A DNA stretch of 64,000 nt, the filler included, from Stramenopiles sp. TOSAG23-2 (Eukaryota), in assembly GCA_900128395.1 (NCBI GenBank). It is 15 parts of 15 records of this genome, joined end to end, with 100 filler letters (N's around TTAATTAATTAA, not from the genome) between each part and the next. Parts side by side here need not be neighbours in the genome. Positions count along the whole stretch, not along the records: positions 27,034 to 31,428 come from LT650911.1; 14 more parts are not named here. The stretch is one strand, 5' to 3'. Shown in pieces: positions 14,050-37,968 of this stretch; within the stretch, counting starts at the first letter, position 1; each line of letters begins with the position of its first letter. The translations under genes were made by a program, and so were the position numbers. Under the pieces are notes generated by a model, which was not told the origin of the DNA, searched no databases, and was given only the letters and a program-made list of their open reading frames with translations.

Positions 14050-17000
14050 TCACGATAAATGAAATGCATCTTTACCATAATTTATTGCCTTTAGTATTTT
14101 TTCTTTCATAACATCTTTTGATTTATAATCAGGTAATTTAAAATAATTTGTACATGTGGAAGCAGATGGTAACGACGACTCTTCCACTCCCAACTCTGAC
14201 ATTGCAGATTCCATTGGTGCCTTTCTAACAACTGTTAAACGGGGTGACAATCCAGCTAACCCTTCATATGGTAAACGTGGAGATCCAGTTACAAAAATTA
14301 AAAAATTTTCTTGTTCCTCTGGGCTAAAATCAGCTAAGATTTCTCGTAAAAGAATTACCGCATTGCTGGTGGAGCTATACCCGTGGTCGTATAATAAATT
14401 ATTATCTAAATCCGTTTTTGTAAATAATGCTTTTGTACCGGAAATAATTATATCCAATTCCTTAGGGCTAAACGAAGCTAGATAAGAAATGTCAATAACA
14501 CCAGATAAACCTTCTGAAATCGATGGAACAACGTTAGATAATGTTTCGCCAATCATTACACGGCAAACACCGGCAACATATTCTTCTAAATTAACAATGG
14601 TAACATCTACTGAATTTCCATTTTTCATAATTTCAACATCCTCGAATCCTGGAACAGTGAAGTCTAGACATAATTGTTCAATTTTTGCACCATCAACATT
14701 TAATTCTTGAATCATAGTGTTTTTTTCTAAAATGCTAAGAGATGTATCGTCTTGTATACGCTTGTAATCTTTAGCAACCCCATGTAACTTGCTCATTTGA
14801 TTACTTAATGCTGGATCAATCAATTTTAAATCTAATAACAATTCATCAATCGATTTTTTATTATTATTTGCATTACCATTACGATAATTGCATATTGATC
14901 GTAAAAGTAAAGGAGAAAAGGATATGGCCAGCAATCTACGATCAACTAGCGCTTGCCCGACAAATCTACCCAACGTTTTATATAATTTACTCCGTCGATC
15001 TGCCTCTAATTCACCAAGATCATCTGTGAAAGGAGATGGATACAATCCTAGTGGAGCAAAACAATATTCACTATCACCGAGACCTTTATTAGTATCAAGC
15101 CATAGAGATAATTTTTTCGAATGGAATTCTTTTGCAACCAAAGTAAAAAATTCCATAGTCGGGCCTTCACCGGTACCAACTTCACCATCAAATTCAACAT
15201 CAATAGTTGTATTTTTATTCTTAATCTTCAAAAACAGGCCTTGTGTTGCCCCTAAGACACCAGTACGCAATACTCTCACTTTAACACGCTCAATGCGAGT
15301 CATCCTTTCTTTTTGAGATGAAGTGATATTTTGACCTCTAGCTTCTGCTTGATTTACCATATATTGCAATGAGCGTTGAGGTGAAAAAGCAGACGAATAA
15401 AAATACTGTCTACGAATTTCAAATGGGAAAAAGAATCTGTAGTTTTGCGTTAAAGCAGAACACCATATTGGTAAACAATTGCTGCATACAGAGAGCGGAT
15501 CTTGCGCTTGGTGTAATAATTTTGATGCAAGCTTACTGTTGTAAAAAATTTCAACATTTAAAACTTGATAATCTTCTTTTTCTACCTTCTTTTCCTTCGC
15601 CTTACTCGTTAGTGCATTGGTATTATTAATAATCGAACCAATATCGTTTTCCTCAATTGCATCACGTAAGATGTGAATAATTTTCATCAATGTAATTAAT
15701 GATGTAATGGTATTATTTCTTCTCGTATGAATTGTCTCATTGAAGCTGCTTCCACTTGAAAATTGGTTTGTAAAACTATAATTATCACCATCCTTCTCGT
15801 AATAATTAGTCAAATTTGACATTGTTAATTCAGATCGCAATGCATGTATTAAGGAATGCTCGAAACGCGACATTGGAGTCAATGCTTTTAACCTGTCATC
15901 CTCTAACATTGCCAAAGACATTTCATCATTGATGTTAACTCCAAAATTGTTATCATCGGGCGTAACTGGTGTTGGCTGCTTTCTTTTAGGTCGTGCACGT
16001 CTAGGAGATACTGGAATGTCTTTACTTTTTGAGCCACTCTTTTTCGAATTAATATTTAAAATAGTTTTTTCTTCTTGGATTTTATAGTACATCACATGAG
16101 GCATATTCCAAATTGCTGGTGTTGGTGGTTTGCAAAATTTTATCATGTTCAAATTAGTGATACCGTGGCTGCTATGTTCCGCCACCATACTATCTTCCGT
16201 TACATATCCTTTCCCGACACCACCACTTTTAGCTACCGCTTCGATTACCGTAGATCCTGGCTGAATTTTATACCCGTTAATGTACAAACAAATATTTTCC
16301 TGTTTGTACTTTTTCTTGACACGATGTCTGGAAGAAGACGACGACGATGATTTCTTTCGATGGTATCTCTTACTGCTGCCATCCGTGAAAGTTGAGGATG
16401 AACCACTGCTATCTCCAACGTCTTTTTCTTCATTATCTCCTCCTTTACTTGATGTCTTTTTTTCCATATTAGAGGATTTTTTCTTATCTACATCATCTCC
16501 ACCATTCTTACTACCGTCGACACTACTGGAACCTTCCCCACTTGATGTTTCCACTTCATTTGTATCTTTTTTTTCTAAACTGGATATTTTCTTCTGTAAG
16601 CTTTCTGTTTGCATTTTTATCATCTTTTGCAGCCGATCGTATGCGCGATCAGCAGAGTCTTCTGATTCATCCATATCCATATCCCCATCTTCATCATTTA
16701 ATCTTTGAAGAAGGAACTCAGTCAAAGCTTTCGTGTTTGCCATTGGCTCTATTAAAATCGTAACACCCTCATCTTGCCAATTTCTTCGTTTCTTTATTTT
16801 TCGCCTATGAGATAATATTTCGGATGCGGACATCTTTCTATTTGATTTAGATTTCTCATCGCTTTCATCAACTTCCTCTTTTAACTTCTTAGTACCGCTT
16901 CCATCTTCGTTATTATTTGCATCTTCCTCACCTGTGTTCTTACTGGTACCAGGCATACGAATTAATTGTATACGTAACGGACTTCCAAGCATTGCTAAGC

Positions 17001-17942
17001 CTTGATCAACTTTGATTTCACCTCGACCATTATGACTCCTCCTATGGCCACCAAATCCACGATGTCTGTACCTAAAACTCATATCTTTTGCACTATTTGA
17101 TTTTGATAAATCTCTCAAATACGTCGGAAATCGTTCACAAGATGCAATTGCCGCTTGAAGACGTTCTATCAAAAAATGTAATGGTATATTTGATGAAGAA
17201 GAAATTCCTTTTTTCATATATTGATTAGTGAAAAATACATTCAAGAATGTTTTTATGCGACATAAACGGTCTTTGAAACGCAGTGTATCCAATTGAGGAG
17301 ATGATGGTGAAGACATGGAGAATGAAGAACTCAAACTGTGTTGCTCCAAAGACGCACGACTGTCGGTACTGTTCGCAGGTGACACCGATGCAGAAATGAC
17401 CTCAAACGAGCGAAGGTTAGTTAAAAAGTTATGCAAGCCATCTATAATCCCACTATTGATTAATTCATGAGTTGATACACTTGCATCTTCCATGAAAATA
17501 TCTTTTAATGCTACTAATATATCAAAATACCGAGATTCGACACTTGCAATTTCATTATTTGAATTAGGACTTGTTGAGTTCACCCGCATACGTTTTGTAC
17601 GCTTTGTCTTTCTCCTTGATCCACTAATTGACTTCTTATTAGTTTCCATATTTGAATTGGCATTGCTATTATTGCTATTCATCCCATTTCCCAACGGAGA
17701 TCTGTTATTCATAAGATTCTGTCTTGGTAAGGGCATCATTTCGGTCATTATACTTTCAATAGATTTTCGTATATCAATTAAACGTTGCATGACCTCGGAA
17801 ACGTTGCGGAAAGTATTTATTTTCTGCACTCCTTCATCAGAATGATCCAAATCTCCCGTTTTCATATTGACATCGCCATCATTAAAATATAAATGCAAAA
17901 ATGAAATTGCAATTGCTTCTACTGTTACCCGTTGATATCTTG
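14050..17942 (-). CDS. UPL3: HECT E3 ubiquitin ligase, UPL3/TRIP12/Ufd4-like, 5'-truncated at the contig edge
   Basis: C-terminal HECT domain (EFDGEVGTGEGPTMEFF; LPSASTCTNYFKLPDY with catalytic Cys). VSTHELINSG and QDPL..C..LP.WC segments are typical of this subfamily. Confidence 0.92.
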
Positions 17943-22538: not shown

Positions 22539-25500
22539 AACCCACCAATAGCTGCACGTTCAAGCAATTCGGTGCACGCTGGTTGCCCTCTCATGGGTGT
22601 CTTGGACGCACCCGATACTGGTACGTCCTATGGCGCTTGGTGTTCAACAGATGCAGGAAAGAGTGATAATAATGTTTACCTCCAATTGGATGCAGGGTCA
22701 ATGGTTGGTATAGGCGGAGCAGTGATAGAAGGCCGTTCGCACGAGACGTATAAAGAATATGTGACTCGATTAAAATTTGCTGTAAGTGATGATGCGGTTA
22801 CATGGATCGAAGTTGATGATGGCAAAATTTTTGATGGTTCTGATGACGAATACAGTAAACAAACAATTACGTTTTCAAAGACCTACATGTCGCGATATAT
22901 TCGATTCATACCCCAANNNNNNNNNNNNNNNNNNNNNNNNNNNNNNNNNNNNNNNNNNNNNNNNNNNNNNNNNNNNNNNNNNNNNNNNNCAGCCATTTTA
23001 ATATGTGGTGAAACATGCATACATCGTGTGTACAACCCAACGTTAGAACAACGTGCATATAGTGACATTGGCAGCAATTGTGGGCTTGGTGTCTTGGGAG
23101 GTGAAGCATGGTGCGAAGACAATAATAATGTAACTCAATTGGACAATTACTTGCAATTAGATTCAGGGTCAATAACGAAACTTAGCGGAGTGGTAATACA
23201 AGGAAAAAGTGGTAGCGATGAACGAGTCACTTCGATAAAAGTTTTAGTGAGTAATGACACGGATACATGGGTGGATGTTGATAATAATGGAGCTATATTT
23301 AATGGCAATACAGATGCAGATTCAGAATTAAAAATATACTTTCCTAAAATTCAAACTGGAAGATTTATAAGGTTTGTGCCACAATCATTTAATGTATGGC
23401 CATCTATGAGGGCTGGAATCCTATTTTGTAGTCAGAAAAGCGTAGTAAGACATCAAATATGTACAAATAAAATTGTGAATCCGACCATTAACTTCCGGCA
23501 GACAAACGGAAATCATGCAGGCTGTACAACATCTGCTTCATTGGGCCTTTCTTTGGGTTATTGTTTGATTGGAAACCCGCAGAGAATGGATATTGAGTTA
23601 ACAAAAAATTCCCAGATCCATGGTATTGCAATCGAAGGTAGAAACAATTCTAATCAGTACGTAAAAAAAATGAAATTTCAAGTTAGCGACGATAATACAA
23701 ATTGGAACGACGTTGATGATGGAAAAATATTTCAAGCAAATATCAACGCAAACCCTGGAAATCGGGTTATTATTTTCTTCACGCGTGCACATTATGGGCG
23801 ATTTTTACGTTTGTTACCAACAGAGTATCTCGAGTATCCAAGTTTAAGGGTTGGCGTCATAAAATGTACACGGGATGATGCATCAGATGACGTTATTGCG
23901 CAGATACCACCACCACCAGATTTAGAGGTAAAAGCGAGTGAAAATCTTGGAAAGGTTTCCAATATTCAAGATTATCATGGGAAAACAATTTGGGAAACAA
24001 ACGGCCCAAGCCCTGAAATTGTTCATGGTAGATATGGTTGGATTTTAGAAGATTATATGGAAAAAACAAGTGGTGCCAATTTATGCTTGAAACAATACCA
24101 CACATTGGCAATGTGGATTTATGTAGATGAGTCATCAGCTACGAATTGGAGGACGGCATTTATAGGTGACAACGCTCACTGGGTTATAATGAAATTTCAT
24201 AGTTCCAGTGAACGGTATGTGTTGGGTTCACATTTGAATGACCACGGAAATTGGTTCAGTGGTAATGTGGAAATGTTAAAAGGACAATGGCAATTAATTG
24301 TTTATGTGGGAGAAGGATCTACGTCTCCACATGGTTACTCCAATGTAGCGCGTACAGGCCAAACAAAAATTTACATCGGAAATCAACAGTTTTCTCCAGT
24401 GCTTGCTTCAACGATTGATAAAGTATCCTCTGGTGATTGTATATATCGTATGGGCTGGCCAGGCCAGTCTCCCGGAACTGTCTCTGAATTTGCAATTTGG
24501 AATCGCGCGTTAACTATCACTCAAATCAAAGCGTACTGGGAACAAACAAGGCATGGCGATACTTTAAATAACGATGTACACCATGTCATAAATTGGGGAT
24601 CCAAATCGAATAATTATTTTTATACAGATGGCATTGTTCATGGTATTGGTGCTGGGCGAGGGAATGATTATGTACCGTATGAAATTCCCCTTGGAACCGA
24701 TGGTTGGTGTGCGACTACCTCTGATGTGCATCAAAATGTCCCAGGTTGTGGCAGAGTGTGTCACAATAAAATAAGTAATTTTCGTGGCGTGAAGNNNNNN
24801 NNNNNNNNNNNNNNNNNNNNNNNNNNNNNNNNNNNNNNNNNNNNNNNNNNNNNNNNNNNNNNNNNNNNNNNNNNNNNNNNNNNNNNNNNNNNNNNNNNNN
24901 NNNNNNNNNTAATTTTCGTGGCGTGAAGAAAGATAGTTTATGGTCAAATACAGTTCCATGCTCTGCATGCCCAGGAGCAAATTGGCCTGGATGCCCAAAA
25001 CAAGATATTTTGCCTACGACAACGTTGTACAACACAGTTGAATACGCTCTTGTATCTACATCGCATGTATGTTCAGGCTATTCATGGGCAACCGATAAAG
25101 CTGGTGCGAATTTAAATGCCAGGCAGCTTGATGGTGGAGGATATGATTACATGGACTGCGTCAGACAGCTAACTTTGAACTTTCCAAACGAATGTTCCAA
25201 AAATTGGTTCATTGTAAACTCTGATAATGGAAATTGTGGCTGTTATCCAAAGAATACAGATTGTTCCATTACCGAACCGACTGCAAGCGGGCGGAGTGAT
25301 AGTTTATATAAACGAGTGTATTGGATTCAAAGGGGATCTTATGAAGAAATCAGTGGAGACCGTGCCATGCGTTTTGGTCCGTATGTAGAAGATGGGAACA
25401 CCAATGCCTATACGGCTGTAGATTGCCAATCTGCATGTAAAAATTGGAATGATATTGCATATACGTACTTCGCAATTCTAGATGGTGGTCATTGTGCATG

Positions 25501-26933
25501 TGATAATGATTGGGAAAACATTATTAAACATGGAAAGATAATAAGCAGTGGTTTTGATGTTTATGAGAGTATTTTCACAAACACAATTTACATTCAAAAC
25601 GGTGCTGTTCACCATGAATGGGTCGGGAGTGCAATTGCAAACCCGATATTGTCAACAAACGTTTTAAACCAAAATTTATCTTTTAAAAATGCATGGCATC
25701 ATATACTTGTTCAATACGATGGCAATTCGAGGCTTATATATGTTGATGGGGAATTAAAAGCATCAGATACCCCGGCATTGCCAAATGCAGTTGCTCCGTC
25801 GAGTCACGTAAATATCGGCCATTTAGATTTCCATTCTTTTTTCGATGGGTGGATAGGTCAAGGAATAATTTGGTCTAAATTTTTGAATGCTGAGGAAAGA
25901 AATGCCTTGCTGCAACCAAATGTATGTGACATGAATGTAAACCCAACCGTTTGCATGTCTTCATGCGATGGTTCGATTGTATTCCCGGACCATGCAAAAT
26001 TGGATTTTGAAAACTTAGCAAATTACGAACTAACGAAGAAAGTTGGTATTGAAATTCGTCAAACGCGGTGGAATTCCAATGAAAAAAACTGCACCGACGA
26101 TGTTGTATGGCCAGTGTTTTATTGGAAAAAAATATTGCAATACCATGACATGTATTCACCGTCCTCCGGCGAGGTCTCAGCAAGTAATTTAAATAGTCCG
26201 CCATCTGAAGTCGGGTTTGCAAAGCTAAGCGATGACAGCATCAATGAAATGAAGTCTATAGATGGTTTCTACTATTATAAAATAGAACAAGAGGTTTATG
26301 AAGACGAGGATGATGAATTCTCTTTTGGAAATCGCGAAAATTCATTCATATATATAAGAACGAAAAATGAATTTATTGACACAATGAAATCTTTTGGATT
26401 CAGCGATTCATATGAAACATGCCAAGGCACAATTGATGTTGAAGATTGCACTTGGCAGTTTCAAAACAATTTACCATATTTGAATAGCTTTAATGAGTAT
26501 GGTTCGACCGCGCTTGACACTTGGATGACTGATCGAGATGGTACGATTGATTGTGTAGGGATAGATTCAAATCAACGTTGCTTTTCATATGGATTAAATT
26601 GGGTGAAAATTGTACAAATTGGTAAATCGTATACGCCAACGACAGATGCTATTGGAATTATGTCAAAATCATCTATAAACAACGCGGTCGGTGGGACATT
26701 GTTTGAAGTAGCAAAACTTTCAGACGCCGATATTAACGCTATATCGAAAAAAGTTATTTTTGAAGAAGTAACTGTTGGTACTCCTGCATTGAGCATGACG
26801 AGTATTACTGTTGAGGAATGTAAAGCCTATGCAAGATCGAATAGTATATTTTCTTGGGGAGGAGTTTCGCCAGCTGTTGGAGATTACGATACGATTGGAT
26901 GTGTCAGGTATGTTGATACACATCCAACTCACG
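22539..26933 (+). CDS. Internal part of a very large extracellular protein: three F5/8 type C (discoidin) domains, LamG/ConA-like domains and a WSC/PAN-like Cys module
   Basis: Repeated YLQLD..G..IxG.....VT..K..VS.D...W..VD...R.IRF.P....SxR.G discoidin pattern. WHHILVQYDG...IYVDG is LamG-like. C.SAC..Y.YFAI..G..C.C is WSC-like. Open across the whole contig apart from N gaps at 22917-22989 and 24795-24909. Confidence 0.85.
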
Positions 26934-27033
26934 NNNNNNNNNNNNNNNNNNNNNNNNNNNNNNNNNNNNNNNNNNNNTTAATTAATTAANNNNNNNNNNN
27001 NNNNNNNNNNNNNNNNNNNNNNNNNNNNNNNNN

Positions 27034-28249
27034 AAAAAATTTTAACTAACTATGTAGATCTATATCTATTAATGTCTAATAAATATGATCTTGAAACATA
27101 TCCTCTATGTGTGTATGACTCTTAGATCTACATATATATATATTTAATGTATATATATATATATATATGCCGTGAGGATAGGCCCCTTCTTTCTTAGTGA
27201 CTTTTTCTTTATCTAAAAGTTCCTCACCTCGTTGTACCGAGTACAGCATATGTATACTCAGGTGTAGGAACTTTCCCCTATCTGATGATGCTCGTGAGCT
27301 ACTTGTTCCTATCAGATAATTAATGGTGGACATTATTTACCATACACTAGTATCTATCATACCCTAGTAAAATGTCGTCGGTAGTCCAAACTATTAAGGC
27401 ATATCTAGCTCTGTAAATAAATTAATTATTTGGCCTCGATTGCATGATGCAAATAATATAGAATTATTTACAATCGGCGATAGGTAAACTAAATATACCT
27501 TACTGACTACTCAAGCTTACTTCCTTAATTTAATTTAATTTACTCTCTAATACAACGTTGTGTTTGTTGGCATATGAATGATGATTTATGGCCCAGCTCA
27601 TGGAGCTGAATATGCTGCCTTCCAACCCATAGCTATCATTCATACACCATACAACGTCGTGTGTTGCAGCTACTGTGCTTTAATGTCTAACACAACTCTT
27701 AACTCTTTAAATTATATATTACTGTCTAATACTAATGTAAAAAATTTTAACTAACTATGTAGATCTATATCTATTAATGTCTAATAAATATGATCTTGAA
27801 ACATATCCTCTATGTGTGTATGACTCTTAGATCTACATATATATATATTTAATGTATATATATATATATATATGCCGTGAGGATAGGCCCCTTCTTTCTT
27901 AGTGACTTTTTCTTTATCTAAAAGTTCCTCACCTCGTTGTACCGAGTACAGCATATGTATACTCAGGTGTAGGAACTTTCCCCTATCTGATGATGCTCGT
28001 GAGCTACTTGTTCCTATCAGATAATTAATGGTGGACATTATTTACCATACACTAGTATCTATCATACCCTAGTAAAATGTCGTCGGTAGTGTCCTAAGTA
28101 GCTATTAATGGTGGACATTATTTACCATACACTAGTATCTATCATACCCTAGTAAAATGTCGTCGGTAGTCCAAACTATTAAGGCATATCTAGCTCTGTA
28201 AATAAATTAATTATTTGGCCTCGATTGCATGATGCAAATAATATAGAAT
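27034..28249. repeat. Direct repeat of ~430 bp (27034-27464 and 27739-28249, offset 705), with an extra ~67-bp internal duplication in the second copy
   Basis: Identical spurious 85-aa ORFs at 27076 and 27781, with a direct sequence match. Confidence 0.9.
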
Positions 28250-28554
28250 GATTTGCAACTGCTGGACTGCAGCACTGCAGCATTTGTTTTTTTATGATGA
28301 GATGTCAATTACATCATTCAGCACTATTATAATATTAATACCAGTCTTTTTATTTTTCCAGGCAGCATGTTGTTGCTTTTTCACACCAATAACTGGAAGT
28401 AATAAAAAAGCTGCTGAATGTTGTATAGAAATTTATTATTATTAATAACGTCTAGGACAGAGAATCTCTCTGCGTCTATTCCATTTACCAACAATAAACC
28501 ACACATCCACATCACCTCCAACCATCACCAACTTGTATATGTATATATAATATA

Positions 28555-30795
28555 ATGAATCTTGCTGCCACAACCAGACCACCACCAGCAGCAAGAAAAT
28601 TTCCTTCTGGTAAATCCTCAGAATCATGGAAACAAGAATTAAACAATAAAGAATACAAATGTTTAATTGATAAAACATATGAGCCACCATGGAAAGGAAA
28701 ATATTTACACAAGTTTCCAAAACGGGGTTACTTTGCGTGCCGTGGGTGTAAAAAGCCATTATTTTCAACACAATCTAAATTTGATGGTGGAGTAGGATGG
28801 TGTTCGTTTCAAAAATGTTTTAAAAATAGTCTTTGTACAGACGAAATAGAATACGATGCAGAAGAAACTGTTGTTACTTTAACACGATGTATACATTGTG
28901 GAATTTTTGTTGGAAAAGTATATGTTGGTGAATACAGGACGGTGTCCAATGAAAGACATAGTGTAAATAGCCTTAGCATTGTCCACGTAAAAGAAGATTT
29001 AGATGAACCGTTGGAAGAATGCACATTGATTTATGTTCCTGAAGTAGATGAAAAAAATGACTCAAAGAATAACGATGGCATTGACGAAGAAACAGCTGTA
29101 GCTGCAGCTAGAATGCTTGATTTTCAAATTAAAACATGTCCTCACCTTGATAGTATTATCGAAAAAATGCGTAGTCTATTGAAATATAATCGTGCATATT
29201 CATTCAATGCGGCATTTGATGGAGTGGAATTCGGTCAATTACCGATACCAAAACTTGTAAAAAATAATATAAAATCACCATGCCGTACTTGTGTAGAACG
29301 ACATACTCCGTTACACCAATGTCGTGGAAGGGATGCATGGGTTTGCCTTTCCCCGAATTGTTGGGGTATTTTCTGTTCAAAATATATTAAAAATCATCAT
29401 GTAGATACCAATCATCCTGTTGTCGTTTGTCCATCTTTAGCTACGTTTTGTTATGTCTGTGATCGTTTTGTTGCGCATGATGATACAAAATCGATTATAC
29501 GTGCATTGCATATTGCAAAATATAAGGCAACGCCAGGAAGCAAAACACCATCCGATAAAACTGGTGCTGGAGTTTTATTTCAACTTGGTTATGCAGAGGC
29601 TGAAACATGTTTATGTTGTGCTTGTCAACATGGAAAACCAACGAAATATATCCTTGATATGGTACCATCTCCGTCTATGACAACACCGCGCCATCCGTCG
29701 TATATAAAAAAAACTATGGAAAGTGCAACTGTCGGTAAAGGTGGACTAATTGATCGAATTAAAGGCTTTATATATGGAGCCGCGTTTGGATCCACAATCG
29801 GAGCTTGTGCATCAAACATGACACGTACGCAAATTCAAGGCTTATATGGGGATTTGCTGAAAACAAAGAAACTGTCTTCTAGACATGGTAAATTGCGTTC
29901 AAAGTTGAGAAAGAAATATTTGTATAAAACTGGAGAATGGAGTATAGCAATGGATTATTTTGTTTCCGCCATGTCATCCTTAGTTGCATTTGGGGGAAAG
30001 GTTGAGCAAAAAGATATGGCATATCGTTTATCACATGCAGTTATTTGTGGCTATCCAGCAATTGATAAGAAACCAAATCATGTTAGTCCATATATGAAGG
30101 CTGTTATAGAAGGTGGGGATGTAGAAGAATATATAATGGATCCAATACGCCATGCAAAAAGCGTCTATGGAGAATTTAAACAATTTCCTATCGCAGATAA
30201 TAATGAAGCATTATTAAGATCCATGATTTTGTCCGTAATACGATTTACTGATCCAGACAGTGTTGCTCGTAATACAAAATTGTCTGTAATTTTGACACAA
30301 CTTTCAATGAAAACATTAGTAGCATCTTGTTGCTTAAATTTATTAATAGCAAAGTTATTGACATTACCGAATTTAAAATTAGATAGACCAGCGATGGTAC
30401 GACATCAAATTAATTGTTTCAATGTTGTTTGTAAAGATTCTCGTGCAAATTCATTACAGGATGAGCTGTCAAAACATTTATTTTTAGAGGAAGAGGATGG
30501 TTTAGAACCTTTAAATTTGACAGATCCGGACAATTGCACGAGTGCATTTAAATCTGTTGGTGTTGCATATGCCGCAGCACATTACAATGGCTCTGATTTT
30601 GTAGGAGCAATAATGGATATAATTGAAGAGGGTGGAGATACAATGGGTAATGCTATGATTACGGGTGGTATTATTGGTTTAAAACTGGGCTATTCACGTT
30701 TACCTTCGCATTGGATGCAAGATATGAAAGCTCGCAATTGGCTTGGTGAAATTGTGGAAAATTTAATTTCAGTAATAGGGTTAAGAGATGAATAA
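28555..30795 (+). CDS. Fusion protein: MsrB/SelR-like domain, ZnF-UBP and ADP-ribosylglycohydrolase-like domain
   Basis: CRGCKKPLF..SKFDGGVGW.SF..C..C..ERHSVNS (MsrB fold). CPHL..CRTC..WVCL..C..C..HH..H..FCYVCD (ZnF-UBP). DRIKGFIYGAAFG...GGD..NA..GG..G...G...LP..W (ARH fold). Confidence 0.88.
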   Translation: MNLAATTRPPPAARKFPSGKSSESWKQELNNKEYKCLIDKTYEPPWKGKYLHKFPKRGYFACRGCKKPLFSTQSKFDGGVGWCSFQKCFKNSLCTDEIEYDAEETVVTLTRCIHCGIFVGKVYVGEYRTVSNERHSVNSLSIVHVKEDLDEPLEECTLIYVPEVDEKNDSKNNDGIDEETAVAAARMLDFQIKTCPHLDSIIEKMRSLLKYNRAYSFNAAFDGVEFGQLPIPKLVKNNIKSPCRTCVERHTPLHQCRGRDAWVCLSPNCWGIFCSKYIKNHHVDTNHPVVVCPSLATFCYVCDRFVAHDDTKSIIRALHIAKYKATPGSKTPSDKTGAGVLFQLGYAEAETCLCCACQHGKPTKYILDMVPSPSMTTPRHPSYIKKTMESATVGKGGLIDRIKGFIYGAAFGSTIGACASNMTRTQIQGLYGDLLKTKKLSSRHGKLRSKLRKKYLYKTGEWSIAMDYFVSAMSSLVAFGGKVEQKDMAYRLSHAVICGYPAIDKKPNHVSPYMKAVIEGGDVEEYIMDPIRHAKSVYGEFKQFPIADNNEALLRSMILSVIRFTDPDSVARNTKLSVILTQLSMKTLVASCCLNLLIAKLLTLPNLKLDRPAMVRHQINCFNVVCKDSRANSLQDELSKHLFLEEEDGLEPLNLTDPDNCTSAFKSVGVAYAAAHYNGSDFVGAIMDIIEEGGDTMGNAMITGGIIGLKLGYSRLPSHWMQDMKARNWLGEIVENLISVIGLRDE

Positions 30796-31528: not shown

Positions 31529-32667
31529 TATGTATGGATTCTGAGGCGGAAAATTACAATCCTGAAGCAGAAATAGAAGATGGTTCTTGTAAATTTCCAC
31601 CTCCACCTCCGATTAAAGGATGCATGGATACGGATGCTACTAATTATAATGCCGAGGCAACGGAAGATGATGGCTCATGTCAGCTTCCAGTAAAAGGATG
31701 CATGGATCCGAAGGCAAAGAATTTTAATAGAAAAGCAGCGCAGGATGATGGTAGTTGTGACTATCCTGAACCACCAAAACCGCCGGCGCCAGAATGTGAA
31801 CCATGGCTATCCAAACATCAAGCAGGTCAATTCTTTGATTGTAATGATAATGGACGTGCAAGAGATGCGGGCAATAATCAGCCATGCATTGATAGTGTTT
31901 TAGGAAAACCAGATCCATTTGGTGATGGTAGGAGAGTACAAATTGTAAGAAATTGGGGTGCAGATGGACATTGTGTTGCAGTTAAGCCAAAACCGGAAAA
32001 TCATGAATACAGTTGTGAAAATAGAGCAAAGACGAAATCATGGGGTCAAGAAACAACTATAAAATTTACTGTCACTGGAGCGGGGGGGGCTGACGGGGGA
32101 GATAGAGGCCATCATGGTAATCCAAATGGTGGATCAGGACAAACGCTGACAGGTACAATTAAAGTACCAGCAAACACCGCGGTAACTATGTATGTAGGAT
32201 GCAAAGGTCATACATCTGGTGGTAGAAAAGGAGGTGGTGGTGGTGGTTCATCTGCGATATTGGTAGGAGGCAGAGAAATGGTTGTTGCTGGAGCAGGTGG
32301 TGGTAGTGCAGCTGTTGCTAATGGAGTAGGTGGAAATGCTGGCTTCCCAAGTGGATCTCAAGGAGGTAGAGATGCGTGCGGAAGGTCCTCAGGTGCTAAG
32401 GGGGGAACAGCTTCATCTGGCGGAAAAGGTGGAGGGGGTAATCGTGGCAAACCCAGTGGTGCAAGAGGAGGAAAGAGGAATGGTGGAAATGCTGGTGGCA
32501 GCGGCGGTGGTTCTGGTGGATGGGGCGGAGGTGGTGGAACTGGTTGCCATGGTAACGGCGGCGGCGGTGGTTCTTCCTATTTTGGATCAGGAGTAATACA
32601 AGAGAGAAACAGTAATGCAAATAATAGAAATCAAGATGGAAAAATAAATATTTATGTAACATTTTAG
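31529..32667 (+). CDS. 5'-truncated extracellular protein: GCMD-x-A-x-N-Y-N-x-A-x-DDGSC repeats, Pro-rich linkers and a C-terminal ALK/LTK-type glycine-rich domain
   Basis: Three GCMD...DDGSC repeats. FTVTGAGG...GGSG..L.G...V.......YVG..G....GGGGGSS......VVAGAGGG...GGGGSSY pattern. Confidence 0.8.
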
Positions 32668-36363: not shown

Positions 36364-37968
36364 TTAAGTTTTATTGAATCTAGAAAAAAATCCCCGCTTT
36401 TTCTTCTTCACTGGTTGACCATCTTTCCACATTCCATCATGATAGATCGAACCATCTGCATTAGTGAATTTACCTTTTCCATTTCTCTTACCATCTTTAT
36501 ATTCACCAACATATACATCACCATTAGTCCATGTATATGTACCTGTTCCATGCATCTTATCATCTTTATATTCACCATCATATACATCACCACTAGCATA
36601 TGTATATGTACCTTTTCCATTTCTCTTATCATCTTTAAAGTCACCAACATATACAGCACCATTAGTCCATGTATATCTACCTGTTCCATGCATCTTATCA
36701 TCTTTATATTCACCATCATATACATCACCACTAGCATATGTATATGTACCTTTTCCATTTCTCTTATCATCTTTCCAATCACCATCATATACATCACCTT
36801 TATTCGATCCACTATTCCATGTAAATGTACCTTTTCCATGTGATTTACCATCTTTAAAGTCACCAACATATACATTACCACTAGCATATGTATATGTACC
36901 ATTTCCATTGTATTTATCATTTTGCCATTCACCATCATATACAGCACCACTAGCATATGTCATTGTACCTTTTCCATGCCGTTTACCATCTTTCATTAGA
37001 CCTTCATATACTTTACCATCGTCATACTTCTTTGTTACAGCTGTAATTATAGGTCTCAATGGTCCAATACTATAACTTGTATAGTTCTTCACACCAGCAA
37101 GACAAGGTTTAGCTTTTCCTTGCGTTGCTAACGTACTCGAGACTGCATCAAATAAACTTAAAGGTTGAATAAATAACACTTCATCATTTTTCTTTTCATC
37201 AACCATTTTAGTTACCTCATCAACAAGGCAATGTGTAAAATCACTTGTTCCAGGTGCTGTTTCTGTTGCGCGAGCTGCAGTCATAATAAGTTTACCAGAA
37301 GAATTACAAATTTCTTCCATTTTTCGATTAAATGATTCCGTACCAGCTTTTATCATTCTATTGTTACCAGATTTAACAATTCCATTTCTTCTATTTGTTT
37401 CGCTGTTGCTATTACTATTATTATTATTGTTATTGCTATTTTGTTCTCTTATACTTTTCACTGTATCATTATAATTTTGATGTCCATCGATTTGTGATTT
37501 TGGCTTTGTATCAAACGTATCAAAACTACCAGAATAACACGCATCAAGAAATATGATTACGCGATCTGTACTAACTTCACTTATTAGTGCATTCATTTCT
37601 GTATACTTTAAATATGTATTATGTGCACAACAAAATTGAAAGTTATTATTTTTTACTTCACCGTGTCCTGAGTAATATATAATTAATGAGTCAAGTGAGG
37701 TAATTTTATTTTGTAGTACATTTTGAAAGACAACTTTAATTTTATCGGCAGTTGCACATGGAATTTGTTTCGTATAAGATTTGTCATAATTCAATTTATC
37801 TCTGAATAAATCATGCATTTTATTGACGTCTGCTTCCCACAAATCAGCATGTGGATCGCCACCACCAATACATACTGAATAAAATTTACCTTGATTGTTT
37901 ATATATTCTTCAGATTCTACTCTTTGCAATGGAGGTTGGTTGCTTTTCGAGGAGGGTTTGTTTCCCAT
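36364..37968 (-). CDS. Caspase-like (peptidase C14) protein with a C-terminal MORN repeat array and an N-myristoylation motif
   Basis: YYSGHG and FLDACYSG catalytic dyad motifs. About eight YxGxxKDxKxxGxGxYxxxxG repeats. N-terminus MGNKPSS. Confidence 0.9.
   Translation of the reverse strand: MGNKPSSKSNQPPLQRVESEEYINNQGKFYSVCIGGGDPHADLWEADVNKMHDLFRDKLNYDKSYTKQIPCATADKIKVVFQNVLQNKITSLDSLIIYYSGHGEVKNNNFQFCCAHNTYLKYTEMNALISEVSTDRVIIFLDACYSGSFDTFDTKPKSQIDGHQNYNDTVKSIREQNSNNNNNNSNSNSETNRRNGIVKSGNNRMIKAGTESFNRKMEEICNSSGKLIMTAARATETAPGTSDFTHCLVDEVTKMVDEKKNDEVLFIQPLSLFDAVSSTLATQGKAKPCLAGVKNYTSYSIGPLRPIITAVTKKYDDGKVYEGLMKDGKRHGKGTMTYASGAVYDGEWQNDKYNGNGTYTYASGNVYVGDFKDGKSHGKGTFTWNSGSNKGDVYDGDWKDDKRNGKGTYTYASGDVYDGEYKDDKMHGTGRYTWTNGAVYVGDFKDDKRNGKGTYTYASGDVYDGEYKDDKMHGTGTYTWTNGDVYVGEYKDGKRNGKGKFTNADGSIYHDGMWKDGQPVKKKKRGFFSRFNKT

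What the first reader, a model, noticed from the sequence alone, without database searches (positions are those of the whole stretch)
28555..30795. MsrB + ZnF-UBP + ADP-ribosylhydrolase fusion with both enzyme domains apparently dead
Seen: a single intronless 746-aa ORF with three recognisable folds. The MsrB domain keeps both CxxC zinc pairs, but the catalytic RxCxNS reads RHSVNS (codon AGT, not a Sec TGA), GWPSF reads GWCSF and HLGHVF reads FVGKVY. In the ARH domain the metal-binding acids are gone: GDAxG reads GSTIG, WTDDT reads WSIAM and GDxDT reads GDTMG. The central HDAC6-type ZnF-UBP retains most Cys/His ligands. Inference: this is a pseudo-enzyme scaffold that might read oxidised methionine, ubiquitin C-termini and ADP-ribose together, or act structurally like ARH-derived crystallins or ARH2. 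I do not know this architecture from characterised proteins.
Basis: partly seen in the sequence, partly recalled or inferred. Interest (0 to 1): 0.8.

Follow-up and report, generated by a model that had tools for sequence, protein, structure and literature searches.

The report
Three-domain dead-enzyme ubiquitin-finger protein
A gene of an uncultured marine microbial eukaryote joins a methionine-sulfoxide-reductase fold, a ubiquitin-tail-type zinc finger and an ADP-ribose-hydrolase fold; both enzyme folds have lost their catalytic residues yet selection keeps them, so the protein most likely binds partners and does not catalyse a reaction.

Summary
Window 28555-30795(+) is one uninterrupted 746-aa ORF with three folds.
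- MsrB/SelR: Pfam E 2.4e-21; VIA Z 20.1.
- HDAC6-type ZnF-UBP: domain model pLDDT 88; best Foldseek hit 3phd.
- ARH3-like ADP-ribosylglycohydrolase: Pfam E 8.2e-23; Z 34.7 to 2foz.

RNA-library contigs are colinear across both junctions, and independent assemblies and orthologues share the architecture.

New here:
- The ZnF-UBP+ARH part is homologous as one unit to a two-domain family with intact catalytic motifs (hhalign E 7.7e-56). That family includes the Capsaspora protein noted in print.
- The window family added an MsrB domain.
- It replaced three of the four metal-binding acids of the ARH site, and also the MsrB substrate-binding residues. The nucleophile Cys survives in 1 of 7 lineages.
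- All domains are under purifying selection (pN 0.10-0.13 against pS 0.62-0.77).
- The ubiquitin-tail pocket is partly eroded.

Best reading: a selection-maintained, non-catalytic binding protein. Its ligands are untested. It is a new variant of a known kind, of moderate interest.

The parts
28555..30795 (+). Whole ORF, 746 aa plus stop, with no intron
   Evidence: No joint inside it in 4 of 4 RNA-library runs. Same-length proteins in independent assemblies.
28612..29004 (+). MsrB/SelR-like beta-tent domain (residues ~20-150). The zinc site C62/C65/C112/C115 is kept and the catalytic and substrate positions are replaced: S136 (codon 28960-28962), F118, K121, V107, L109, Y42, V80, C83.
   Evidence: Pfam SelR E 2.4e-21. 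pLDDT ~95. VIA Z 20.1, rmsd 2.0, 129 residues aligned to 3cxk_A. Residue counts. Codon.
29005..29124 (+). Linker 1 (residues 151-190). It is acidic and predicted disordered, and ends in a conserved helix (AARMLDF) that leads into the zinc finger.
   Evidence: pLDDT < 50 for residues 160-191. Conservation in alignment A1.
29125..29529 (+). HDAC6-type ZnF-UBP (residues ~191-325). It has a family-specific helical insert after C195xH197 and a 9-residue insert (R249-R257, with H250 and C256) after C243xxC246.
   Evidence: PDB sequence hits. Domain model pLDDT 88.2. Foldseek HDAC6 3phd_B E 2.7e-6. Ligand and pocket table.
29530..29733 (+). Linker 2 (residues 326-393). It is predicted disordered but conserved. 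It holds C352-x-C354-x-x-C357 and P378-x-H380-P-S-Y383, invariant in all 7 family members aligned and absent from the two-domain relatives.
   Evidence: Invariant columns of A4. pLDDT < 50 for 330-382. pN 0.147 against pS 0.612. Its function is unexplained.
29734..30792 (+). ARH3-like ADP-ribosylglycohydrolase fold (residues 394-746) without the binuclear metal site. Equivalents of human ARH3 T76/D77/D78 are S463/I464/A465, and of D314/x/D316/T317 are D695/T696/M697/G698. It carries an enlarged basic loop, ~436-456.
   Evidence: Pfam E 8.2e-23. pLDDT ~90. VIA Z 34.7, rmsd 2.4, 306 residues aligned to human ARH3 2foz. Residue counts. ARH3 ligand list.

Best explanation
The gene encodes a real, expressed, selection-maintained protein that no longer catalyses either ancestral reaction and acts through binding.

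Origin (shown in part): a ZnF-UBP + ARH3-like hydrolase existed first. This two-domain protein is still found with intact catalytic motifs in Capsaspora, Rhodelphis and Cavostelium. One marine eukaryotic lineage gained an N-terminal MsrB domain, a zinc-finger insert and a Cys-rich linker motif.

Loss (shown):
- The ARH site lost three of its four metal-binding acids, one of the two metal-binding Thr (the other is Ser or Gly in the close clade) and the Glu of the first motif.
- The MsrB cradle lost its nucleophile in 6 of 7 lineages. All 6 lineages aligned also lost both His, the Arg/Glu pair and the recycling Cys.
- The structural zinc sites and the fold-forming glycines and hydrophobic residues were kept.

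Mechanism (inferred): three folded modules on two flexible linkers form an adaptor.
- The zinc finger offers a partly conserved pocket for a free C-terminal tail. That tail may be ubiquitin-like or something else.
- The metal-free ARH shell and the remodelled beta-tent cradle serve as protein- or ligand-binding surfaces without turnover.
- This matches ARH-fold and beta-tent-fold proteins that act non-catalytically elsewhere.
- The most likely field of action is ubiquitin/ADP-ribose signalling, perhaps by competing with or regulating an active relative.

Rough odds:
- Real gene with these three folds: 0.97.
- Neither ancestral activity retained: 0.85.
- Binding or adaptor role in ubiquitin/ADP-ribose signalling: 0.45.

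The confidence given for this entry (0.6) is for the core claim: a non-catalytic protein, kept by selection, that acts by binding.
For: Reality of the gene:
- Exact ORF.
- Four related loci in other assemblies.
- RNA-library contigs from 4 of 4 runs laid, in 3 studies. Two of the runs are polyA-selected. The contigs are colinear with no joint in the ORF and bridge both junctions.

Folds:
-.

Common origin with the two-domain family:
- One colinear hhalign match of 478 columns, from the zinc finger to the end of ARH, probability 100, E 7.7e-56.
- P0076 is the Capsaspora protein, P0042 is from Rhodelphis and P0098 from Cavostelium.
- These keep GDAxG..TEF, WTDDTDQ and GDADTN.

Loss of the ARH centre:
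- ARH3 ligands are T76, D77, D78 and D316 for Mg-A, and D314, D316 and T317 for Mg-B. The authors call these acids critical for hydrolysis, and D77A loses all activity (PMC8141533, passages).
- In the 5 family members aligned, the columns read I/I/I/I/P, A/T/S/T/A and M/T/M/S/S. Other ARH domains have Asp there in 45 of 51, 44 of 51 and 45 of 53.

Loss of the MsrB centre:
- Nucleophile column: S, S, S, A, C, V, S in 7 lineages, against Cys in 76 of 82 others.
- His columns: F/F/Y/Y/Y/H and K/K/K/K/R/R, against His in 80 of 83 and 79 of 83.
- 3HCI R97 column: Val in 6 of 6, against Arg in 76 of 84.

Selection:
- Window against L002: pN/pS is 0.116/0.769 for MsrB, 0.101/0.619 for ZnF-UBP and 0.127/0.666 for ARH. 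Overall dN/dS is about 0.08.

Relaxation exactly at the former active sites:
- Of 56 ARH columns that are >= 85 % conserved in 52 other domains, 29 are kept in all four close orthologues. Five are replaced by a new invariant residue and 22 vary among the four.
- The former metal-ligand columns fall in the replaced or variable classes, except D695 (ARH3 D314), which is kept.

Precedents:
- ADPRHL1/ARH2 as an ARH pseudoenzyme (abstracts listed; PMC7050489 passage).
- The beta-tent fold described as a scaffold that mounts a binding site (PMC4287342, passages).
Against: - No binding was measured or modelled, so the mechanism is inference.
- The zinc-finger pocket is only partly kept. For HDAC6 W1143/R1155/Y1156/W1182/Y1184/Y1189 the window has W/K/Y/F/Y/F. 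The Y1189 hydroxyl is lost in all 8 family rows. Y1184 varies (Y, Y, T, S, Y, F, M, L), while the two-domain relatives keep Y1189 in 7 of 7. Canonical ubiquitin-tail binding is therefore doubtful.
- One orthologue keeps the MsrB Cys.
- Several pocket-lining ARH residues remain invariant (D467, N550, R555, T581, D695, N699). A changed chemistry or a retained small-molecule ligand is not excluded.
- The ARH tree does not place the family inside the two-domain clade (support 22).
- Synonymous sites between window and L002 are near saturation (pS 0.68), so dN/dS is approximate.
- RNA-library contigs cannot formally exclude carried-over DNA.
- The full-length model was made from alignment A3, in which ARH-only rows were partly misaligned onto the MsrB columns. 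Confidence was nevertheless high.
Confidence: 0.6

Rival explanations
1. It is a neo-functionalised enzyme. The ARH-like domain, or the MsrB-like domain in some species, still turns over a substrate with a different, metal-independent or differently liganded centre.
For: - Strong purifying selection acts on both domains.
- Invariant polar residues remain around the old ARH cleft: D467, N550, R555, T581, S584, D695, N699.
- New family-invariant residues sit at former active-site columns: S413, I464, Y468, and V107, L109, K121.
- P0006 keeps Cys in R-H-C-V-N-S.
Against: - Three of the four acids that ARH3 needs are replaced by small or hydrophobic residues. These differ between close orthologues (A/T/S/T at one column, M/T/M/S at another). 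That is the pattern of relaxed columns, not of a new catalytic set.
- The MsrB nucleophile column holds five different residues in 7 lineages.
- Both His and the Arg/Glu pair are gone even in the Cys-bearing orthologue.
Confidence: 0.15
2. It is a purely structural or complex-subunit protein. None of the three ancestral ligand sites is used, and the folds serve as rigid bodies in a larger assembly, as with ARH2/ADPRHL1 or crystallin-type ARH proteins.
For: - All three ancestral sites show erosion.
- Conserved elements lie outside the old sites: the linker-2 C-x-C-x-x-C and H-P-S-Y motif, the basic loop at 436-456 and the zinc-finger inserts.
- The VIA list includes ARH-fold chains that are subunits of large complexes. 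Examples are a Ycf2-FtsHi motor chain at Z 33.4 and a trypanosome mitoribosome assembly chain at Z 24.8.
Against: - Pocket-forming residues of the zinc finger (W262, Y277, K/R276) and of the ARH cleft remain conserved.
- The flexible beads-on-a-string model (pTM 0.60, disordered linkers) suits an adaptor better than a rigid building block.
- No partner is known.
Confidence: 0.2
3. It is an artefact: a chimeric assembly, a decaying pseudogene, or a selenoprotein MsrB read wrongly.
For: None found. The upstream region does hold a perfect 705-bp-spaced duplication and polymorphic joints at 28363-28437, but both lie outside the ORF.
Against: - The same 746-aa protein is present in many contigs (cluster of 29 members).
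- Two other assemblies carry the gene at 99-100 %.
- Orthologues at 78, 73, 54 and 53 % identity are full length.
- RNA contigs bridge the junctions.
- pN is far below pS in every domain.
- The nucleophile codon is AGT, not TGA.
Confidence: 0.01

Closest known systems
Two-domain ZnF-UBP + ARH3-like proteins of diverse eukaryotes (P0076 = Capsaspora owczarzaki ADP-ribosylglycohydrolase; P0042 from Rhodelphis; P0098 from Cavostelium). Drawn but not characterised in Perina et al. 2014, PMC4245714.
   Same: The zinc finger, linker and ARH are colinear and homologous as one unit (hhalign probability 100, E 7.7e-56, 478 columns). Both zinc fingers are closest to HDAC6 in PDB.
   Different: - The relatives keep GDAxG..TEF, WTDDTDQ and GDADTN. 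Their ubiquitin-pocket residues are better kept: R1155 and W1182 equivalents in 7 of 7, Y1189 in 7 of 7, Y1184 in 5 of 7.
- Their ARH Pfam scores are 192-215 bits, against 82 here.
- They lack the MsrB domain, the 9-residue zinc-finger insert and the linker C-x-C-x-x-C motif.
ARH3 (ADPRS) and other active ADP-ribosylglycohydrolases (DraG, MJ1187)
   Same: Same fold over the whole domain: Z 34.7, rmsd 2.4, 306 residues aligned to 2foz; Z 34.7 to 1t5j; Z 31.9 to DraG 2woc.
   Different: Of the ARH3 metal ligands T76, D77, D78, D314, D316 and T317, only the D314 equivalent is kept, with a Ser for T76. The Glu column of the first motif is S/S/F/F/S.
ARH-fold pseudoenzymes: vertebrate ADPRHL1/ARH2 (and, recalled, jellyfish J1-crystallins)
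   Same: ARH fold with the catalytic residues lost and a non-catalytic role (abstracts of PMC10601310 and PMC7390403 in the listing; PMC7050489 passage).
   Different: Those are single-domain animal proteins. No specific relationship beyond the fold was tested here. The window protein carries two further domains.
MsrB / SelR methionine-R-sulfoxide reductases
   Same: Beta-tent fold with the 4-Cys zinc site. W82, F85, R134, H135, N138 and S139 are kept. Z 20.1 to 3cxk_A.
   Different: - Nucleophile Cys is absent in 6 of 7 lineages.
- Both His, the Arg97/Glu99 equivalents, the Thr26 column, the recycling Cys and the Pro of GWPSF are all replaced.
Non-catalytic beta-tent domains (cereblon CULT, Yippee, Mis18), as grouped by Lupas et al. 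2015, PMC4287342
   Same: A zinc-bearing beta-tent whose cradle binds a ligand without a catalytic residue (passages). This is what the window's MsrB-like domain may work like.
   Different: By sequence the window domain is plainly MsrB-derived (Pfam SelR). It does not have the three-Trp cage. No CULT or Yippee match was seen.
HDAC6 ZnF-UBP
   Same: Best sequence and fold match of the middle domain. 11 of the 12 zinc ligands I recall for HDAC6 have aligned Cys/His (the ligand list itself is recalled).
   Different: Pocket substitutions are R1155K, W1182F and Y1189F. There is a 2-residue insert between the C1145 and C1148 equivalents. The H1164 region is deleted. There are extra inserts with H250 and C256.

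Membership tests
MsrB / SelR (PF01641) | Profile match above Pfam's gathering score, and the beta-tent fold | tested here: met
   76.3 bits against 24.9. Z 20.1, rmsd 2.0, 129 residues aligned to 3cxk_A.
MsrB / SelR (PF01641) | Structural zinc site made of two CxxC pairs | tested here: met
   C62, C65, C112 and C115 are present in all 6 family rows aligned.
MsrB / SelR (PF01641) | Catalytic Cys (or Sec) in R-x-C-x-N | tested here: not met
   S136, codon AGT. The 7 lineages read S, S, S, A, C, V, S, against Cys in 76 of 82 other domains.
MsrB / SelR (PF01641) | Substrate-binding residues: two His of HLGHVF, the Arg/Glu of the RxE strand, and Thr26 (E. coli numbering; PMC8417374 and PMC4287342 passages) | tested here: not met
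   The window has F118, K121, V107, L109 and Y42. Other domains have His 80 of 83, His 79 of 83, Arg 76 of 84, Glu 79 of 84 and Thr 74 of 82. Trp82 and Asn138 are kept.
ZnF-UBP (PF02148) | Profile match above Pfam's gathering score | tested here: not met
   The window protein matches only zf-UBP_var, at 11.7 bits against a cut-off of 22.6. Family member P0037 passes zf-UBP at 30.1 bits against 22.7.
ZnF-UBP (PF02148) | ZnF-UBP fold and sequence similarity to solved ZnF-UBP domains | tested here: met
   7 of 7 PDB sequence hits are ZnF-UBP. The family profile hits HDAC6 at 1.2e-9. Domain model pLDDT 88.2. Foldseek 3phd_B E 2.7e-6, TM 0.67, rmsd 2.0.
ZnF-UBP (PF02148) | Cys/His zinc ligands | tested here: met
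   C195, H197, C243, C246, C264, C269, C274, H281, H287, C299 and C302 align with Cys/His of HDAC6 and of the two-domain relatives. One His, in the H1164 region, falls in a deletion. The assignment of ligands to zinc ions is recalled, not from a call.
ZnF-UBP (PF02148) | Pocket for the free C-terminal Gly-Gly of ubiquitin (HDAC6 W1143, R1155, Y1156, W1182, Y1184, Y1189; bioRxiv 10.1101/268557, passages) | tested here: inconclusive
   The window has W262, K276, Y277, F298, Y300 and F305: 3 identical and 3 conservative. Y1189 is lost in 8 of 8 family rows, and Y1184 varies.
ZnF-UBP (PF02148) | Binding of ubiquitin | not testable with these tools
   No ubiquitin sequence is held in the window or the loci, so no complex job was sent.
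ADP-ribosylglycohydrolase (PF03747; ARH3-like) | Profile match above the gathering score, and the ARH fold | tested here: met
   81.9 bits against 26.2. Z 34.7, rmsd 2.4, 306 residues aligned to 2foz.
ADP-ribosylglycohydrolase (PF03747; ARH3-like) | Binuclear Mg site: T76, D77, D78, D314, D316, T317 of human ARH3 (PMC8141533, passages) | tested here: not met
   The window has S463, I464, A465, D695, M697 and G698. One of the four acids is kept. Other domains have Asp in 45 of 51, 44 of 51, 50 of 53 and 45 of 53. The mapping rests on the T-D-D and D-x-D-T motifs, not on a residue-level structural alignment.
ADP-ribosylglycohydrolase (PF03747; ARH3-like) | Catalytic Glu of the first motif (Glu41 of ARH3; the mapping is inferred from the GDAxGxxTE column) | tested here: not met
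   S420. The family reads S/S/F/F/S, against Glu in 47 of 51 others.
ZnF-UBP + ARH3-like two-domain family | Colinear homology over the zinc finger, linker and ARH | tested here: met
   hhalign probability 100, E 7.7e-56, 478 columns.
ZnF-UBP + ARH3-like two-domain family | Placement inside that clade on an ARH tree | tested here: inconclusive
   The three-domain proteins form one clade (SH-aLRT 99) on a stem of 1.07 changes per column. Its link to the rest has support 22 (quick tree, 58 rows).
ARH pseudoenzymes (ADPRHL1/ARH2, J1-crystallin) | Specific relationship to those proteins | not tested
   No ARH2 or crystallin sequence was in the alignments. ARH1 structures score lower than ARH3 (Z 27-28 against 34-35).

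The most novel reading that the evidence does not exclude
The two-domain ZnF-UBP + ARH3-like proteins may be ancient erasers of ubiquitin-linked ADP-ribose marks. The window's family would then be their catalytically silent counterpart: a decoy or reader that holds such hybrid marks, or free ubiquitin-like tails, without cleaving them. The remodelled MsrB beta-tent cradle (Lys/Arg in place of His, Val in place of Arg) would give it a third, new recognition surface.
Probability: 0.1. Interest if true: 0.8.

Novelty: new variant of a known kind. Interest (0 to 1): 0.45.

Why it matters
- It is a clean natural example of one polypeptide carrying two different pseudo-enzyme domains around a ubiquitin-type zinc finger. 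The active ancestor-like form is still alive in other eukaryotes, so the steps of catalytic loss can be read. The two-domain proteins are intact, the P0036 clade is half-eroded, and the window clade has lost nearly all of the site.
- It points to the uncharacterised ZnF-UBP + ARH3-like proteins, such as the Capsaspora one. These are candidates for the link between ubiquitin and ADP-ribose signalling.
- The window protein itself comes from uncultured marine eukaryotes and has no known partner. Its direct value is as a comparison and as a probe, not as an answer to an open question.

Tried and rejected
- Whole-genome search: no genome is held for this window. I could not ask whether the organism also has active MsrB or ZnF-UBP-ARH paralogues.
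- ESM Atlas: no usable hit.
- The 150-row alignment A3 put the N-terminal halves of ARH-only proteins onto the MsrB columns. I discarded those counts and redid them on domain-cut alignments. A3 was still the input of the full-length model.
- The ARH tree did not resolve the position of the family relative to the two-domain proteins.
- Synteny: the neighbours of L002 and L004 are unrelated to the window's neighbours. The window's HECT ligase does not match the long ORF next to the L002 orthologue.
- Ubiquitin complex prediction: no ubiquitin gene is in the window or the loci, so no job was sent.
- P0004 (593 aa, no MsrB) looked like a two-domain close orthologue. Its 90 % cluster holds 746-aa members, and the one fetched, P0200, has the MsrB domain, so P0004 is a short gene model.
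- P0038 and P0126 looked like stand-alone dead MsrBs. They are fragments of family members.
- Uncovered stretches in the laid RNA contigs (for example 30211-30574 in run X1) are not interpreted.
- Literature: no paper held both 'ADP-ribosylglycohydrolase' and 'ZnF-UBP'. None held three of MsrB, SelR, zf-UBP, ZnF-UBP, ADP-ribosylglycohydrolase and ADP-ribosylhydrolase. The library lacks most subscription journals, and I opened no supplements.
- Taxon of the window: not determined. The evidence for 'marine microbial eukaryote' is this:
  - eukaryote-type neighbours (HECT, GPN-loop ATP_bind_1, metacaspase-MORN; 11 of 21 ORFs scanned had Pfam hits);
  - polyA and marine metatranscriptome holders;
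  - membership in a eukaryotic protein set.


Full report
**1. What is there**

Window 28555..30795 (+) is a single ATG-to-stop ORF of 746 codons. The window is AT-rich (GC 0.26-0.40 in 2-kb steps). Of 21 larger ORFs I scanned, 11 had Pfam matches. These include a HECT ubiquitin ligase, a GPN-loop ATP_bind_1 protein, a metacaspase fused to MORN repeats, a GST and two class-V aminotransferase fragments. That is eukaryotic gene content. No whole genome is held for the window.

**2. The three folds**

MsrB and ARH:
- Pfam gives SelR at residues 29-143 (E 2.4e-21) and ADP_ribosyl_GH at 404-719 (E 8.2e-23). Both are well above their cut-offs.
- The full-length AlphaFold model has mean pLDDT 81.7 and pTM 0.60. 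The MsrB part is near 95 and the ARH part near 90. Two linkers are below 50, at 160-191 and 330-382.
- VIA-align gives Z 34.7 (rmsd 2.4, 306 residues aligned) to human ARH3 2foz, and similar values to MJ1187 and a Listeria ARH.
- VIA-align gives Z 20.1 (rmsd 2.0, 129 residues aligned) to the MsrB 3cxk_A. Foldseek agrees.

The middle domain:
- It fails Pfam's zf-UBP models for the window protein.
- Residues 185-330 hit only ZnF-UBP domains in PDB: 7 of 7 at E <= 0.01, best HDAC6 at 5.7e-7.
- The profile of five orthologues reaches 1.2e-9.
- The domain folded alone has pLDDT 88.2.
- Its listed Foldseek matches at E <= 0.001 (28 counted) are all ZnF-UBP domains or proteins that hold one. They are HDAC6, USP49, Ubp8 and VDU1; USP16, USP20 and USP5 follow at weaker E-values. 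The best is 3phd_B: E 2.7e-6, rmsd 2.0 over 91 columns.

**3. Not an artefact**

- The 90 % cluster of the protein has 29 members from several sources, many of exactly 746 aa.
- A metagenome scan returned four loci. Two carry the same gene at 99-100 % (L001, L003), one an orthologue at 78 % (L002) and one at 53 % (L004).
- Thirteen of 21 listed runs that hold part of the stretch are on record as RNA, from marine samples.
- I laid four runs from three studies. Contigs are colinear with the DNA, and the only joints lie upstream of the ORF, at 28363-28437 and 28388-28436.
- Single contigs cover 28447-29417 and 29418-30136 (run X1), 28436-29164 and 29596-30143 (run X2), and 29323-29562 and 29361-29511 (runs X2 and X7). 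Both domain junctions are therefore bridged.
- Two of the runs are polyA-selected. Contigs of an RNA library cannot strictly exclude DNA, as the tool warns.
- The Ser at the MsrB nucleophile position is encoded by AGT.

**4. The catalytic positions against the families**

I cut the domains out of the best 150 hits listed by the representative search (3491 hits at E <= 0.001) and aligned each domain set on its own.

| MsrB column | Family rows | Other domains |
|---|---|---|
| Nucleophile (7th lineage) | S, S, S, A, C, V, S (7 lineages) | Cys 76 of 82 |
| First His of HLGHVF | F/F/Y/Y/Y/H | His 80 of 83 |
| Second His of HLGHVF | K/K/K/K/R/R | His 79 of 83 |
| Recycling Cys | V/V/A/A/S/S | Cys 77 of 85 |
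| Pro of GWPSF | C/S/A/A/C/C | Pro 77 of 85 |
| 3HCI Arg97 | Val in 6 of 6 | Arg 76 of 84 |
| 3HCI Glu99 | L/L/L/L/V/R | Glu 79 of 84 |
| Thr26 | Y/Y/D/D/Q/A | Thr 74 of 82 |

- PMC4287342 names W73, R97, H111 and F113 of 3HCI as the binding site (passages).
- PMC8417374 names His103, His100, Asn119 and Thr26 (passage).
- The four zinc Cys, Trp82, Arg134 and Asn138 are kept.

| ARH column (human ARH3 equivalent) | Family rows (5) | Other domains |
|---|---|---|
| T76 | S/S/G/S/T | Thr 47 of 51 |
| D77 | I/I/I/I/P | Asp 45 of 51 |
| D78 | A/T/S/T/A | Asp 44 of 51 |
| D314 | D in 5 of 5 | Asp 50 of 53 |
| D316 | M/T/M/S/S | Asp 45 of 53 |
| T317 | G/G/G/G/A | Thr 40 of 53 |
| Asp of GDAxG | S/S/S/S/D | Asp 49 of 51 |
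| Glu after it | S/S/F/F/S | Glu 47 of 51 |

- PMC8141533 lists those six residues as the ligands of the two Mg ions. It reports that D77, D78, D314 and D316 are critical for hydrolysis. D314A and metal-free ARH3 bind ADP-ribose about 44-fold more weakly, whereas D77A binds 23-fold more tightly (passages).
- My mapping to ARH3 numbers rests on the consecutive T-D-D and D-x-D-T motifs, not on a residue-level structural alignment.

**5. Kept by selection, relaxed at the old sites**

- Nei-Gojobori counts for window against L002 give pN 0.127 and pS 0.675 overall, so dN/dS is about 0.08.
- Per domain, pN/pS is:
  - 0.116/0.769 for MsrB;
  - 0.101/0.619 for ZnF-UBP;
  - 0.147/0.612 for linker 2;
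  - 0.127/0.666 for ARH.
- Synonymous sites are near saturation, so the ratio is approximate. In comparisons with L004 they are saturated.
- Of 56 ARH columns that are >= 85 % conserved in 52 other domains, 29 are kept in all four close orthologues. Five carry a new invariant residue and 22 vary among the four.
- Of 38 such MsrB columns (82 other domains), 23 are kept, 3 are newly invariant (V107, L109, K121) and 12 vary.
- The former ligand columns fall in the replaced or variable classes, except the D314 equivalent (D695), which is kept. The kept columns are largely glycines and core residues.

**6. Where it came from**

- Among the 183 proteins held at that point, 25 had all three domains (all from this family). 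Eleven had the zinc finger plus ARH, of which 3 are short gene models or fragments of this family. None had MsrB plus ARH without the finger.
- Only 7 of 1.84 billion representatives reach E <= 1e-30. All 7 are family members or fragments of them, so no three-domain protein with intact centres appeared.
- Pfam finds zf-UBP plus ADP_ribosyl_GH with strong scores (192-215 bits) in 6 of the 14 proteins scanned.
- Those proteins keep GDAxG..TEF, WTDDTDQ and GDADTN.
- One is the Capsaspora owczarzaki protein. Others come from Rhodelphis limneticus and Cavostelium apophysatum.
- Perina et al. 2014 draw the Capsaspora zf-UBP + ARH3-like architecture without characterising it (PMC4245714, passages).
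- A profile of seven family members against a profile of eight two-domain proteins gives one colinear match of 478 columns. It runs from the zinc finger to the C-terminus, probability 100, E 7.7e-56.
- A second, more distant branch of the family (P0036 with a 35-member cluster, P0037, P0039) is half-way. It reads GDALG, WTPATD and GDASAN, and has the MsrB domain, the zinc-finger insert and the linker motif.
- On an ARH tree the family is one clade (SH-aLRT 99) on a long stem of 1.07. Its attachment is unresolved, with support 22.
- The order of events therefore fits the data but is not proven: first a two-domain protein, then gain of MsrB, then loss of catalysis.

**7. The zinc finger**

- Aligned Cys/His are present for 11 of the 12 HDAC6 zinc ligands as I recall them.
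- The ubiquitin-tail pocket of HDAC6 uses R1155, Y1156, Y1184 and Y1189 for hydrogen bonds, and W1143 and W1182 for stacking (bioRxiv 10.1101/268557, passages).
- The window has K276, Y277, Y300, F305, W262 and F298.
- Across 8 family rows the Y1189 equivalent is never Tyr, and the Y1184 equivalent is Y, Y, T, S, Y, F, M, L.
- The 7 two-domain rows have Tyr at Y1189 in 7 of 7, and Arg and Trp at R1155 and W1182 in 7 of 7.
- The pocket exists but is eroded. I rate canonical ubiquitin-tail binding at roughly one in three.

**8. Unexplained conserved extras**

- Linker 2 is predicted disordered. It nevertheless holds C352-x-C354-x-x-C357 and P-x-H380-P-S-Y, invariant in all 7 aligned members. This may be a further zinc knuckle or a docking motif.
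- The zinc finger has a family-specific insert with H250 and C256.
- The ARH domain has an enlarged Lys/Arg-rich loop (~436-456) next to the former metal site.

**9. Verdict**

- Its class, pseudo-enzyme, is supported. The specific idea of a triple reader is not supported by the state of the three sites and remains untested.
- The closest known thing is the uncharacterised two-domain ZnF-UBP + ARH3-like family.
- I did not find the three-domain form in print. Those searches cover open-access papers and bioRxiv only.
- It is a new variant of a known kind, of moderate interest.

Noticed in passing
window 27034-27333 and 27739-28038 (also 27319-27473 / 28104-28258): A perfect 300-nt direct repeat spaced 705 bp apart lies just upstream of the ORF. 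Each copy has an (AT)19 run and an identical 85-codon ORF on the minus strand. RNA-library contigs show alternative joints nearby (28363-28437 skipped in X1; 28388-28436 replaced by 86 other letters in X2). This could be a duplication, a polymorphic promoter region or an assembly effect.
   Followed up: partly
window 31534-32667 (+): The next ORF (377 aa) starts with repeated ~25-residue modules ending in D-G-S-C. It ends in a very Gly-rich half that weakly matches the ALK/LTK glycine-rich domain (21.8 bits, below the 24.5 cut-off).
   Followed up: no
window 22572-24926 (+) and 24923-26989 (+): Two long ORFs overlap by 4 bases. The first has three F5/8 type C domains plus Laminin_G_3, and the second has Laminin_G_3. 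They may be one gene split by a frameshift or a short intron.
   Followed up: no
window 36364-37968 (-): A caspase-family (Peptidase_C14) domain is fused to eight MORN repeats, giving a metacaspase-MORN architecture.
   Followed up: no
window 14050-17898 (-): A 1282-aa HECT ubiquitin ligase lies about 11 kb from the finding. It does not match the long ORF beside the L002 orthologue, so no conserved linkage is seen.
   Followed up: yes
P0076, P0042, P0098 and other two-domain proteins (not in the window): ZnF-UBP + ARH3-like proteins with intact catalytic motifs and a largely conserved ubiquitin-tail pocket occur in Capsaspora, Rhodelphis and Cavostelium. I found no functional study of them. 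They are candidates for hydrolases acting on ubiquitin-linked ADP-ribose.
   Followed up: partly
PDB chains 8xqw_G, 8xks_Q, 9hny_FP, 6sga_FP: ARH-fold chains that are subunits of a chloroplast Ycf2-FtsHi motor and of a trypanosome mitoribosome assembly intermediate match the window's ARH domain at Z 24-33. They may be precedents for structural use of the fold. I did not check their catalytic residues.
   Followed up: no
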